Assembly: GCA_048882045.1 (NCBI GenBank)
Contig: JBHLRZ010000060.1
Coordinates: forward strand, 1 to 10,916
Reading direction: 5' to 3'
DNA length: 10,916 nucleotides
Source: Candidatus Thorarchaeota archaeon
GTDB lineage: Archaea > Asgardarchaeota > Thorarchaeia > Thorarchaeales > Thorarchaeaceae
Shown here: positions 3,935-6,105 of the stretch, piece by piece
Position numbering within the stretch: the first letter of the stretch is position 1
How the letters are laid out: each line of letters opens with the position of its first letter
The notes under the pieces: model-generated
Database searches by the model: none
What the model was told of the DNA's origin: nothing
Seen by the model: only the letters and a program-made list of their open reading frames with translations
Position numbers and translations under genes: made by a program

Positions 3935-3975
3935 ACTGAGGTATCTGGAAAATGGTATCTCAGTTCATTTTTATC
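3935..3975 (+). terminator. Hairpin + T-tract downstream of 3360..3917
   Basis: ACTGAGGTATC-N8-GGTATCTCAGT is an 11-bp stem with 2 G:U pairs, followed by TCATTTTTATC. Confidence 0.6.
3958..3975 (+). repeat. 18-bp direct repeat, left copy (TCTCAGTTCATTTTTATC)
   Basis: Identical to 6088..6105; the flanking bases differ on both sides. Confidence 0.9.
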
Positions 3976-4149
3976 AATTCTAGTCGGAAGTATTTTATTC
4001 TCTCAAATGATATGTTAATCACCTAATCATTACAAAATGCTAAGCATGAATTGTGGTGGATACATGCTGCGTCAAAATCTGACTTGGTGTCTTTTTAACC
4101 AGTCTGCGGGACCTGTAGTGAGGAGGGAGAAAAGAACTGGGGGACCTTG

Positions 4150-5217
4150 ATGAATAAAAAGAAACAGATGGTTGTTGTTCTTTTTTGCATAATCTTTGCA
4201 TCAACGAATTTTATTGCAATATTTACACAACCAATCGTGAGTCCGGTTATAGTTACCTTTGGTAATACTAGAGCCGAAATTGCATCAATTGAAGTACTAC
4301 AGACTGAATATCCCGACGCAATCACAGTACAGTACGGCAGCTTGGATTACTATTTGATAAAGGGAAGATGTTTCGGTCCGATGGTATATGTTGGTCATGG
4401 AACAGGAGATAGCATTGGCAATGCAGATGCTCGCCAGATAATCCTGGATATCAAGACTAGTCCTGCTCCATATACCTATCTACTATCATGCGGTTCAAAT
4501 GAGATTGCGAATATCGAACTTTCGCGGAATATTGTTGGATTCGGTCAAGTGATTGACGCTGATATGGGAGCACTGGTTGTTGCATTAAGAATAGCTGTTG
4601 ATTTTCATATGGTAGAAAAAGTAGAGTCAATCTTCGATCAATTCTTAGAAATTGCAAGAGGCAAGATTAGTGGACAGATACCAATACTTCCATTGGCTTA
4701 TTTCAGCAATGCTGAAAGAGATCACTTTCTTGGTGCCTTGTTGCTAAGTATTGGAATTGCGATTCTCGGCCCGATCGTTTTCTCAGCTCTGGCACAAAGA
4801 TTTTCACTTGCTGCAGCTGCAGCAGCAAATACCGCAGCTACAGGAGTGAAAGCTGCAATTAAGCGACTTGTAATTTACTTTGCAACGCATGGGGGTGTTG
4901 GATCAGTCATGACCGGCATCAATATCCTCTTCGGTGGCGTATTTGCGTTTGCAACTCAACTGGGACCAACATTTGTCACTTTCATAAACATAGCAGTAAA
5001 CAGCATGAACATCTTTGAGTGGATGATATGGATAGCTCTCACAGCTGTTGAGATTGCGGTGATAGTGTTAACTGCTACTGCAGCTCTATGGATTAGAATA
5101 GCAGCTAGCTTGGGGATAGCATTGTTCAATGTCGGGGCCATAGGCTGGACAGATTACTGGGATGCAAATGGCACTCCGTGTGGTTCACTACTCGAAGCAA
5201 TAAGCCAGTTGACCTAA
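4150..5217 (+). CDS. Exported protein with a caspase-like (clan CD/CHAT-like) His-Cys domain and a hydrophobic Ala/Gly-rich C-terminal domain; putative self-processing toxin/bacteriocin-like precursor
   Basis: The N-terminus is MNKKKQ plus a hydrophobic stretch (signal or anchor). MVYVGHG (His at 4396-4398) and YTYLLSC (Cys at 4489-4491) are each preceded by a hydrophobic beta strand, then IVGF and a helix follow. The C-terminal ~165 aa are mostly hydrophobic helices. The start is ATG 4150, directly after TTG 4147. Confidence 0.6.
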   Translation: MNKKKQMVVVLFCIIFASTNFIAIFTQPIVSPVIVTFGNTRAEIASIEVLQTEYPDAITVQYGSLDYYLIKGRCFGPMVYVGHGTGDSIGNADARQIILDIKTSPAPYTYLLSCGSNEIANIELSRNIVGFGQVIDADMGALVVALRIAVDFHMVEKVESIFDQFLEIARGKISGQIPILPLAYFSNAERDHFLGALLLSIGIAILGPIVFSALAQRFSLAAAAAANTAATGVKAAIKRLVIYFATHGGVGSVMTGINILFGGVFAFATQLGPTFVTFINIAVNSMNIFEWMIWIALTAVEIAVIVLTATAALWIRIAASLGIALFNVGAIGWTDYWDANGTPCGSLLEAISQLT

Positions 5218-5229
5218 CAAACCTTCGTT

Positions 5230-5285
5230 GGTTAGACAATTCTGACTATCTATTTGGAAGTTAGAATTGTCTGGTCCTTTTTTAT
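5230..5285 (+). terminator. Long hairpin + T-tract between the convergent cassette genes
   Basis: GGTTAGACAATTCTGACT-N11-AGTTAGAATTGTCTGGTC is a stem of about 18 bp with G:U pairs on +. It is followed by CTTTTTTATC. Confidence 0.7.
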
Positions 5286-5311
5286 CCTCAAGATGAACGA
5301 GAATGGTCGTA

Positions 5312-6085
5312 TCATAATTGAGTTTTCAGAGAATCTATCTGTGTTTCGAGATTGCCAAATTCAGGAAATGTACTTTCGATTGTCTGAATCTTCTGTTGCA
5401 TCTCCTCTGGTATTCCGTGACTAATTCCAAAGTCCGGCCAGTTTTGTCTTTCAATTTGTGTTGATTGAAGAATTAGGCCCGGACAAGTTTCTTTGATAAT
5501 CGGTACAATCTCTCGCAGAATATCCTCTGCAACCTTCCGGTTTTGAACTGGTAAAAACCAATACGAATAGGATATTGGAACTACTAAAATGGCTGAGAAT
5601 ACAATGAAACCTATACTCAGAAATGGGGTTATTGGGCTAACGAGCTCTATGAAATCCAACCATCCGATTATGGATGCTACAATGGGTAGTATGTATAATG
5701 CAAGGATAAAGATGCAATAAAAGATGAATAAAAATCCAAGAACTGTGATCACACGTTGGACTTTTCGGGCTTGTTCTAATTTCTTAGTACCTGGTGTAAT
5801 TGTTCCCCCAACTTGTCCGTAGACTCCCGCTTCTTGGGTTGCGTATAATGAAACAATTCCTTTACGCTTTATGAGATTCGTAATTCCATCATTCTCATCT
5901 GTTTGAATCTTACGATAACCACTATCACAAATGCGTTCAACAATGAGTTGTAGAGGGACATTACTTCCCTCTAGCAAGAAAAAGTGTCTCCTATCAGTTA
6001 TCAGAGGTTGCATGGTCCAAAGCCTAAGATTGTCGCCCACATACCCTATTGGTGATAATTGATATTTCAATTTATTCAAAGTCAT
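5312..6085 (-). CDS. Hypothetical membrane protein with a central helical-hairpin TM region; candidate immunity/partner protein
   Basis: 257-aa ORF with two long hydrophobic segments (VITVLGFLFIFYCIFILALYILPIVASIIGWL and ITPFLSIGFIVFSAILVVPISYSYWFL) between soluble N- and C-domains. The start is uncertain: 6085, or the ATG at 6013 (MQPLITD). Confidence 0.7.
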   Translation of the reverse strand: MTLNKLKYQLSPIGYVGDNLRLWTMQPLITDRRHFFLLEGSNVPLQLIVERICDSGYRKIQTDENDGITNLIKRKGIVSLYATQEAGVYGQVGGTITPGTKKLEQARKVQRVITVLGFLFIFYCIFILALYILPIVASIIGWLDFIELVSPITPFLSIGFIVFSAILVVPISYSYWFLPVQNRKVAEDILREIVPIIKETCPGLILQSTQIERQNWPDFGISHGIPEEMQQKIQTIESTFPEFGNLETQIDSLKTQL

Positions 6086-6087
6086 TT

Positions 6088-6105
6088 TCTCAGTTCATTT
6101 TTATC
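6088..6105 (+). repeat. 18-bp direct repeat, right copy (TCTCAGTTCATTTTTATC)
   Basis: Identical to 3958..3975. It lies in the 43-bp gap between the divergent starts at 6085 and 6129. Confidence 0.9.

What the first reader, a model, noticed from the sequence alone, without database searches (positions are those of the whole stretch)
3958..6105. 2.1-kb two-gene cassette bounded by a perfect 18-bp direct repeat, with no recombinase in the window
Seen: TCTCAGTTCATTTTTATC occurs at 3958-3975 and 6088-6105 and encloses exactly two convergent genes. The left copy forms the 3' arm and T-tract of the hairpin after gene 3360..3917. The right copy has lost the matching 5' arm, as expected if insertion duplicated part of a terminator. 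Deleting one copy plus the cassette would leave a plausible ~80-bp intergenic region before the MFS gene. Inference: these are attL/attR-like sites or a target duplication of a non-autonomous cassette mobilised in trans, carrying a candidate toxin/immunity pair.
Basis: partly seen in the sequence, partly recalled or inferred. Interest (0 to 1): 0.8.

Follow-up and report, generated by a model that had tools for sequence, protein, structure and literature searches.

The report
Recombinase-free two-gene insertion in a Thorarchaeota genome
A 2.1-kb block with two membrane-protein genes was inserted between two neighbouring genes of an Asgard (Thorarchaeota) archaeon, duplicating 18 bases of the target; a sister species still has the uninterrupted site, and no enzyme that could have done the insertion is detectable.

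Summary
TCTCAGTTCATTTTTATC occurs exactly twice in the window and in the whole 3.6-Mb MAG, at 3958-3975 and 6088-6105. A congeneric genome (G004) has the same two flanking genes 78 bp apart. It carries one exact copy of the 18-mer, the left-flank hairpin before it and the MFS leader after it: a textbook empty site.

The 2,112-bp insert holds a gene pair that recurs convergently in two other Thorarchaeia genera. One gene encodes an exported caspase/CHAT-like protein with an invariant His/Cys and a multi-helix hydrophobic tail. The other encodes a small membrane protein from a tiny family.

There are no terminal inverted repeats and no recombinase in the cassette. The assembled genome shows no tyrosine or serine recombinase, DDE_Tnp_1 or rve transposase, or Cas1.

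Relatives of the small gene are also bracketed by 53-63-nt imperfect direct repeats at three other loci. In one, the repeat is a foreign-type copy of the target gene's 3' end, which a staggered-cut duplication cannot produce.

Best reading: attL/attR-like products of Campbell-type integration of a non-autonomous cassette, with the catalyst unknown. The toxin/immunity idea is untested.

The parts
3360..3917 (+). Left flanking host gene: 185-aa membrane protein (P0001)
   Evidence: ORF. Orthologue at 83% aa identity sits directly upstream of the MFS gene in G004, and at 53% in G002.
3935..3964 (+). Terminator-like hairpin after the left gene (11-bp stem, 8-nt loop). Its 3' arm runs into the left repeat copy.
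   Evidence: RNA fold -14.6 kcal/mol, z -2.6. The same hairpin is in G004 (-19 kcal/mol, z -4.6). Stem differences are kept as G-U wobbles.
3958..3975 (+). Left copy of the 18-bp direct repeat (attL-like)
   Evidence: Upstream flank is homologous to the G004 empty site; downstream flank is not.
3976..6087 (.). Inserted DNA, 2,112 bp, absent from the G004 site
   Evidence: Three-way alignment. GC 0.402 against a genome mean of 0.442 (sd 0.020). Tetranucleotide distance at the 96.6th percentile. No other copy in the genome. No terminal inverted repeats.
4150..5217 (+). Cassette gene 1 (P0002, 355 aa): N-terminal membrane anchor, caspase/CHAT-like domain (about residues 28-180, invariant H83 and C114), Gly/Ala-rich multi-helix C-terminal region
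   Evidence: No Pfam, NCBIfam or PADLOC hit. 115 representative clusters at E<=1e-3. Invariant His/Cys. AF2 mean pLDDT 82. Best fold hits SAVED-CHAT (Z 11.2), MARTX/TcdB CPD, legumain and MALT1. CHAT clusters in the ESM Atlas.
5234..5272 (.). Strong hairpin between the two convergent cassette genes (14-nt arms); likely bidirectional terminator
   Evidence: Inverted repeat I7. Folds at -28.7 and -22.1 kcal/mol on the two strands, z -3.6 and -3.1.
5312..6085 (-). Cassette gene 2 (P0003, 257 aa as the longest ORF; probably about 233-242 aa): small N-terminal domain, helical membrane hairpin, small C-terminal domain
   Evidence: Only 8 clusters in 5.8 billion proteins. Family alignment. AF2 mean pLDDT 62. 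No family hit.
6088..6105 (+). Right copy of the 18-bp direct repeat (attR-like). Its TTTTTAT lies 25-31 nt before the MFS start codon.
   Evidence: Downstream flank is homologous to the G004 site; upstream flank is not. The promoter role is inferred from position only.
6129..7619 (+). Right flanking host gene: MFS_2 sugar-type transporter (P0004), followed by a GH38 alpha-mannosidase at 7635-10454
   Evidence: Pfam MFS_2 E 4e-63; GH38 domains. Orthologues at 73-80% identity in 16 listed congeners.

Best explanation
A horizontally acquired two-gene module was integrated as one block into the 80-bp spacer between a small membrane-protein gene and an MFS transporter gene of a Thorarchaeota archaeon. 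The module pairs an exported caspase/CHAT-like membrane protein with a small membrane partner. The integration point is an 18-bp sequence that forms the tail of the upstream gene's terminator hairpin and carries the TATA-like box of the MFS gene. After integration this sequence is present on both sides, so both host functions are kept. I read the two copies as attL/attR-like products of a conservative, Campbell-type recombination. One partner was the chromosomal 18-mer; the other was an identical stretch on an extrachromosomal, probably circular, form of the cassette. The cassette encodes no recombinase. The reaction must therefore have been catalysed in trans by an integrase of another element, or by host recombination on short homology. 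Shown: the repeat, its uniqueness, the empty site, the absence of recombinase and terminal inverted repeats, and the recurrence of the gene pair. Inferred: the circular form, the type of recombination and the promoter/terminator roles.
For: The exact repeat is unique in the genome. The empty site in G004 has one exact copy, with the left flank homologous to the window's left junction and the right flank to the window's right junction. An outgroup (G002) also has the two host genes adjacent without the cassette. P0002 has no close orthologue in the other 27 genomes of the genus, and P0003 has one, at another locus. The nearest relatives are in other genera (G068 at 47%, G099 at 56%). Composition is mildly foreign. 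The convergent P0002-like/P0003-like pair recurs in G068 and G060. Eighteen bp is within the usual range of att cores and above usual transposon duplications (general knowledge). P0003-family genes are bracketed by 53-63-nt imperfect direct repeats at three other loci. About 4% of random 2.6-kb windows of this genome score as well as the 18-bp repeat, which suggests an excess; my scorer did not recover the G003 repeat. In G003 the outer copy is a relic 3' end of the NAD kinase gene. It differs from the working copy mainly at synonymous sites and carries the C-terminal motif of another clade: 49/60 identity to G043 against 43/60 to G003's own gene. Such a repeat must come from recombination between pre-existing similar sequences, not from a staggered cut. 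Tyrosine recombinases occur in 8 of 27 congeners, mostly near the ends of the contigs that hold them, so trans-acting enzymes circulate in the genus.
Against: No tyrosine or serine recombinase, DDE_Tnp_1 or rve transposase, or Cas1 was found in the 93%-complete assembly; only three TnpB-like genes were found. No circular or attP-bearing form was seen. The two viral contigs that contain the 18-mer are unrelated. The flanking repeats at the four loci share no common sequence, so a single site-specific enzyme with one att specificity does not fit all of them. Homology among P0003 loci ends about 35 nt upstream of the gene, so there are no conserved element ends. The support from G003, G099 and G062 concerns relatives, not this insertion. 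In the window the repeat is perfect with sharp edges, which a target-site duplication would also give.
Confidence: 0.55

Rival explanations
1. The 18 bp is a target-site duplication. The target was cut with an 18-nt stagger by an unknown transposase or casposase-like enzyme, or a staggered break arose at the hairpin. A linear cassette was joined in and the gaps were filled.
For: The repeat is perfect, has sharp edges, and corresponds exactly to a sequence present once in the empty site. It starts inside a hairpin arm, a plausible site for structure-specific cleavage. No attP-like copy was found elsewhere.
Against: There are no terminal inverted repeats. There is no second copy of the element in the genome. 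No DDE_Tnp_1, rve or Cas1 enzyme was found. Eighteen bp is longer than nearly all known transposon duplications (general knowledge). The related cassette in G003 has a repeat that cannot be a staggered-cut duplication.
Confidence: 0.2
2. The cassette is old at this locus. The G004 lineage lost it by recombination between the two 18-bp copies, so the 'empty site' is a deletion scar rather than the ancestral state.
For: Direct repeats of this length can drive deletion. The 18-mer is conserved 18/18 between species whose neighbouring spacer is only about 60-70% identical, so both copies could have been kept by selection as terminator tail and promoter.
Against: G002 also has the two host genes adjacent without the cassette. 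Of the other 27 genomes of the genus, none has a close P0002 orthologue, and the only P0003 homologue is at another locus. Cassette composition is atypical. This reading still needs an earlier event that created the duplication.
Confidence: 0.1
3. The two 18-mers are independent copies of a shared regulatory motif (promoter or protein-binding site) or a chance match, with no role in the insertion.
For: The sequence contains a TATA-like TTTTTAT at a suitable distance from the MFS start. A third, inverted near-copy overlaps the GH38 start at 7614-7648.
Against: 0 of 200 shuffles gave two matches. There are only two copies in 3.6 Mb, and the 2-mismatch hits in congeners lie in unrelated, mostly coding contexts. 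The repeat edges coincide to the base with the edges of the indel relative to G004. The third copy is not conserved in G004.
Confidence: 0.03

Closest known systems
Cis-mobilisable elements (CIMEs) and other integrase-less islets flanked by att sites, as described for bacterial ICE/IME systems
   Same: A short block of cargo genes bounded by direct repeats, with a single copy of the repeat in the empty site. No recombinase of its own; presumed dependence on an enzyme supplied in trans.
   Different: Only 2.1 kb. The host is an Asgard archaeon. The target is a terminator/promoter spacer rather than a tRNA or conserved gene end. No cognate integrase-bearing element using this site is known or found. 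Related cassettes sit in unrelated repeats at other loci.
Integron gene cassettes, including those reported in Archaea (bioRxiv 10.1101/2022.02.06.479319; title and abstract seen, paper not read)
   Same: Very small, recombinase-free units of one or two genes that are gained and lost as blocks.
   Different: No attC-type imperfect palindrome at the cassette end (the right copy does not fold). No IntI or any PF00589 protein in the genome. No cassette array. The genes are convergent with their own terminator, not promoterless and co-oriented.
Casposons and DDE transposons/MITEs
   Same: Insertion flanked by a duplicated target sequence; casposons give unusually long duplications (14-15 bp, from general knowledge).
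   Different: No terminal inverted repeats. No Cas1. No DDE_Tnp_1 or rve. Single copy in the genome.
Clan CD cysteine peptidases (caspase, legumain, CHAT, MARTX/TcdB CPD), as a comparison for cassette protein P0002
   Same: An alpha/beta domain with an invariant His-Gly after one strand and an invariant Cys after the next. Best structural matches are SAVED-CHAT (Z 11.2, 146 residues), MARTX CPD, legumain and MALT1. CHAT clusters are the structural neighbours in the ESM Atlas.
   Different: No sequence-profile match to any Pfam, NCBIfam or PDB family. The domain is membrane-anchored and probably extracytoplasmic, and is fused to a Gly/Ala-rich multi-helix hydrophobic region not seen in the named families.

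Membership tests
Integrated element bounded by attL/attR (non-autonomous, CIME-like) | Direct repeats at both ends, identical to a sequence present once at the unoccupied site | tested here: met
   18/18 at both ends. One exact copy in G004 between the same two genes, with flanks matching left and right junctions respectively.
Integrated element bounded by attL/attR (non-autonomous, CIME-like) | A site-specific recombinase available, in the element or elsewhere in the genome | tested here: not met
   None in the cassette. PF00589 and PF00239 have no match in the 93%-complete assembly. PF00589 is present in 8 of 27 congeners. MAGs often lose mobile DNA, so absence from the cell is not shown.
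Integrated element bounded by attL/attR (non-autonomous, CIME-like) | Excision to a circle with a joined attP and a restored attB | not testable with these tools
DDE transposon / MITE | Terminal inverted repeats | tested here: not met
   No inverted repeat involves the cassette termini.
DDE transposon / MITE | Several copies in the genome, or a matching transposase | tested here: not met
   Single copy. No PF01609 or PF00665 match.
Casposon | Cas1-type casposase and terminal inverted repeats | tested here: not met
   No PF01867 in the genome. No terminal inverted repeats.
Integron cassette | attC-type foldable imperfect palindrome at the cassette boundary, and an IntI integrase or cassette array nearby | tested here: not met
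   The right boundary does not fold (z +0.5). No PF00589. No array in the 10.9-kb contig.
Clan CD (caspase/CHAT-like) cysteine peptidase (protein P0002) | His and Cys catalytic dyad, each just after a beta-strand of an alpha/beta sandwich (His-Gly ... Cys) | tested here: met
   H83 (with G84 nearly invariant) and C114 are the only invariant residues in 38 family members. They follow strands 78-81 and 108-112 in the model.
Clan CD (caspase/CHAT-like) cysteine peptidase (protein P0002) | Fold similarity to solved clan CD enzymes | tested here: met
   SAVED-CHAT 8tl0 Z 11.2, rmsd 4.1, 146 aligned; legumain Z 8.7. Foldseek top hits are MARTX CPD, SAVED-CHAT, TcdB CPD and MALT1, all with E above 0.001. 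Generic Rossmann-like folds score nearly as high, so this is moderate support.
Clan CD (caspase/CHAT-like) cysteine peptidase (protein P0002) | Sequence-profile match to a described family | tested here: not met
   No Pfam, NCBIfam or PADLOC hit for P0002. No peptidase family among 38 members scanned against Pfam. The profile against PDB sequences gave nothing significant.
Toxin / immunity pair | Conserved adjacency of the two genes | tested here: met
   The convergent P0002-like + P0003-like pair occurs in G000, G068:C6 and G060:C63. Both families also occur alone at many loci.
Toxin / immunity pair | A recognisable toxin domain, or demonstrated toxicity neutralised by the partner | tested here: inconclusive
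   No toxin, bacteriocin or immunity family matched. Activity cannot be tested here.

The most novel reading that the evidence does not exclude
P0003-family genes, alone or with their caspase-like partner, are the cargo of a previously undescribed, recombinase-free kind of mobile cassette in Thorarchaeia. It would enter terminators or gene 3' ends by recombination on 18-63 nt of similarity carried over from a previous host, regenerating the interrupted signal on both sides. It would spread between species without any element-encoded enzyme.
Probability: 0.3. Interest if true: 0.75.

Novelty: new variant of a known kind. Interest (0 to 1): 0.55.

Why it matters
Little is known about how Asgard archaea gain genes, and described mobile elements are large and carry their own integrases. 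Here a filled site and an empty site are both in hand to the base. The inserted unit is tiny and enzyme-free. Relatives of one cargo gene show the same repeat-bracketed layout at three other loci, one with a clearly foreign copy of the target. If short-homology integration of small circles is a regular route of gene flow in these archaea, it would explain patchy accessory genes without invoking viruses or integrases. The cargo is also an uncharacterised, exported caspase/CHAT-like membrane protein family with a dedicated partner. That matters for the history of caspase-type proteases near the origin of eukaryotes.

Tried and rejected
1. Frequent-motif idea: the 18-mer is absent elsewhere in the genome. 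The eleven 2-mismatch hits in congeners lie in unrelated contexts.
2. Transposon, casposon and integron readings: no terminal inverted repeats, no second copy, no matching enzymes, no attC-like fold.
3. IS200/605-type (TnpB present): these insert without duplication. Subterminal hairpins were looked for only at the right end, where none was found. PF01797 (TnpA) was not searched.
4. Structured RNA or tRNA target: none found.
5. Virus or plasmid origin: no P0003 relative in IMG/VR. The two viral contigs with the 18-mer are one unrelated sequence. The P0002 alignment was too divergent for the viral scan.
7. Single-protein scan of genome contigs found nothing. The alignment scans found only G003, G099 and two short LGOV contigs.
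8. Empty sites for other loci: for the G062 cassette, the only congener with the flanking gene shares no downstream DNA. G069 has different genes at the G068 pair's site.
9. No flanking repeats were found around the pairs in G068 and G060 or at three other P0003-like loci.
10. Residual homology between the cassette ends and the host spacer beyond the 18-mer: none visible in the three-way alignment.
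Full report
OBSERVATION. The 18-mer TCTCAGTTCATTTTTATC is at 3958-3975 and 6088-6105. No further match with up to 3 mismatches occurs in the window, and none of 200 shuffles gave two matches. The window is the whole of contig C60 of a 3.63-Mb, 93-contig, 93%-complete MAG. These are the only two copies in that genome with up to 2 mismatches. Identity ends abruptly on both sides.

Between the copies lie two convergent ORFs, 4150-5217 (+) and 5312-6085 (-), separated by a strong hairpin at 5234-5272. 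The left copy contributes the last 7 nt of an 11-bp hairpin (3935-3964) behind gene 3360-3917, plus the T-rich tail. The right copy has no hairpin.

THE ORGANISM. Contigs of congeners are titled 'Candidatus Thorarchaeota archaeon'. A Ras-family GTPase sits in a related locus. The window is therefore from an Asgard archaeon of class Thorarchaeia.

THE EMPTY SITE. MFS orthologues at 73-80% aa identity were found in 16 listed congeners. In G004 (contig C190) the orthologue of the left gene (83% aa) ends at 1849 and the MFS gene starts at 1928. The 78-nt spacer holds one exact copy of the 18-mer at 1884-1901. The same hairpin precedes it, and a leader alignable with window 6106-6128 follows it.

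The window's left junction matches G004 up to the end of the 18-mer and not beyond. The right junction matches from the start of the 18-mer onward. Deleting 3976-6105 from the window gives an 81-nt spacer. A more distant congener, G002, also has the two host genes adjacent (150-nt spacer, not alignable) without the cassette.

NOT A COMMON MOTIF. In 28 genomes of the genus the exact 18-mer occurs only in G000 (twice) and G004 (once). The eleven 2-mismatch hits lie in unrelated, mostly coding contexts. Between G000 and G004 the 18-mer is 18/18 identical, while the adjoining spacer is only about 60-70% identical. It is therefore constrained.

Its position fits two host functions. It forms the tail of the upstream terminator, and stem differences between the species are kept as G-U wobbles, which points to an RNA-level role. 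It also carries a TATA-like TTTTTAT 25-31 nt before the MFS start codon. The promoter role is inferred from position only. Duplicating it leaves both host signals intact after insertion.

THE CARGO: P0002. P0002 (355 aa) has no Pfam, NCBIfam or PADLOC match. An exhaustive HMMER search found 115 representative clusters of similar length. In an alignment of 38 members the only invariant residues are H83 (in VGHG) and C114.

The AlphaFold model (mean pLDDT 82) has four parts:
- an N-terminal helix;
- an alpha/beta domain at about residues 28-180, with His and Cys each just after a strand;
- a low-confidence linker;
- several hydrophobic helices.

The best structural matches are clan CD proteases. 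SAVED-CHAT scores Z 11.2 over 146 residues; MARTX and TcdB CPD, legumain and MALT1 follow. Generic Rossmann-like folds score nearly as high. Structural neighbours in the ESM Atlas are CHAT-domain clusters. A profile search of PDB sequences found nothing significant. I call it a divergent, membrane-anchored caspase/CHAT-like protein. Catalysis is inferred, not shown.

THE CARGO: P0003. P0003 has only 8 clusters among 5.8 billion proteins. Most relatives begin near its residue 25, and DNA similarity starts about 35 nt upstream of that. The real start is therefore probably the GTG near 6040 or the ATG at 6013. The model is of low confidence (mean pLDDT 62) and no lead emerged.

THE TWO GENES ARE A MODULE. 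HMMs of the two families detect a convergent P0002-like/P0003-like pair in G068:C6 and G060:C63, which belong to two other genera. Both families also occur alone. P0002-like genes are multi-copy in some genomes, with 8 matches in G045. P0003-like genes are solitary at seven of ten loci. The 'toxin/immunity' label is compatible with this pattern but has no positive support.

FOREIGNNESS. None of the other 27 genomes of the genus has a close P0002 orthologue. Only G003 has a P0003 homologue (58%), and it lies at another locus. The closest genomic relatives are in other genera (G068 at 47%, G099 at 56%). Cassette GC is 0.402 against a genome mean of 0.442 (sd 0.020). Its tetranucleotide distance from the genome mean is at the 96.6th percentile. 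This is mild support, since membrane proteins are compositionally biased.

HOW IT GOT IN. The cassette has no terminal inverted repeats, no other copy in the genome and no recombinase. The assembled genome has no PF00589, PF00239, PF01609, PF00665 or PF01867 match. Its only mobility-related hits are three TnpB-like genes. PF00589 proteins occur in 8 of 27 congeners, mostly near the ends of the contigs that hold them, so integrases circulate in the genus. No tRNA or Rfam family is present.

AN UNEXPECTED CLUE FROM RELATIVES. In G003 the P0003 homologue is bracketed by a 53-nt direct repeat of 77% identity, spaced 945 nt. The inner copy is the working 3' end of the NAD kinase gene. The outer copy is a relic 3' end, stop codon included, that abuts the neighbouring DUF5714 gene.

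The two copies differ at 8 synonymous positions and only 3 conservative codons. The relic carries the C-terminal motif (..IKIE*) of a different NAD kinase clade. It is closer to G043 (49/60) than to G003's own gene (43/60). It therefore came from another lineage's functional gene. A staggered-cut duplication cannot produce this. Recombination between similar sequences on incoming and resident DNA can.

Two further P0003-like genes are bracketed in the same way:
- G099:C181: 54 nt, 76% identity, spacing 973. The repeat is again a small hairpin plus a T-rich tail.
- G062:C108: 63 nt, 81% identity, with a 33-nt perfect core, spacing 1219.

About 4% of random 2.6-kb windows of G000 contain a direct repeat scoring as high as the window's. 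Against that base rate, four bracketed loci out of ten suggest an excess. The count rests on the repeat finder; my scorer did not recover the G003 repeat. The four repeats share no common sequence. Similarity among the cassettes ends close to the gene. A single enzyme with one att specificity does not fit all four.

VERDICT ON MECHANISM. That a block of 2,112 bp was gained (or, less likely, lost in G004) with the 18-mer as its boundary is about 90% certain. I favour Campbell-type integration of a circular, non-autonomous cassette through the 18-bp identity, at 0.55. The catalyst would be an integrase in trans or host recombination on short homology. The alternatives are an 18-bp target-site duplication (0.2), ancient presence with deletion in G004 (0.1), and motif or chance (0.03). 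The window alone cannot separate the first two. The preference rests on the length of the repeat and on the G003 relic.

The contigs of the nearest metagenomic homologues, and the other assemblies that carry P0002 exactly, could not be read. No reads were available to look for excision products. G004's contig is only 3,980 nt. Empty sites for the other three bracketed loci were not found.

EARLIER NOTES OF THIS SCAN. Notes on the same window called gene 1 an exported caspase-like protease and gene 2 a candidate immunity factor. They also noted an inverted near-copy of the repeat at the GH38 start. I reached the caspase-like reading independently from the invariant His/Cys and the fold. The inverted near-copy is real (31 of 36 positions, BLAST E 0.013) but is not conserved in G004.

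Noticed in passing
L061 (G003:C212) 6228-6280 and 7173-7225: The only congeneric P0003 homologue is bracketed by a 53-nt direct repeat of 77% identity. The outer copy is a relic NAD kinase 3' end of a different clade's type, and the differences are mostly synonymous.
   Followed up: yes
L092 (G099:C181) 1996-2049 / 2969-3022; L094 (G062:C108) 2646-2708 / 3865-3927: Two distant P0003-family genes are each bracketed by 54-nt and 63-nt imperfect direct repeats (76% and 81% identity; the latter has a 33-nt perfect core). No empty sites were found for them.
   Followed up: partly
window 7614-7648: An inverted near-copy of the right junction (host flank, 18-mer with one deletion, 4 nt of cassette flank; 31 of 36) overlaps the MFS stop and the GH38 start. 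It is not conserved in G004. Meaning unknown, possibly chance.
   Followed up: partly
whole genome G000 and its genus: No tyrosine recombinase (PF00589) was detected in G000 or in 19 of 27 congeners, so no housekeeping Xer-type enzyme is detectable in most genomes of this Thorarchaeia genus.
   Followed up: partly
window 6013-6085 (minus strand): The annotated start of the 257-aa gene is probably too far upstream. Relatives start near residue 16-25 (conserved ..LW.M.P..TDRRHFF), which leaves about 50-70 nt of cassette DNA for its own promoter.
   Followed up: partly
G045, G039, G044, G058, G062: The P0002 caspase/CHAT-like membrane protein family is expanded to 4-8 matches in some Asgard genomes and absent from many others. 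In G068:C1 and G069:C44 it is paired instead with a convergent 452-aa gene.
   Followed up: no
L098, L104-L119 (congeners), between NAD kinase and DUF5714: Most congeners carry a 248-aa gene starting MIVLLTDFG... there. By recall I take it for a SAM hydroxide adenosyltransferase-like (DUF62) gene, but no family search was run. G003 has the P0003 homologue at that place, and in G008 the two flanking genes lie 27 nt apart.
   Followed up: partly
Not examined here.
   Followed up: no
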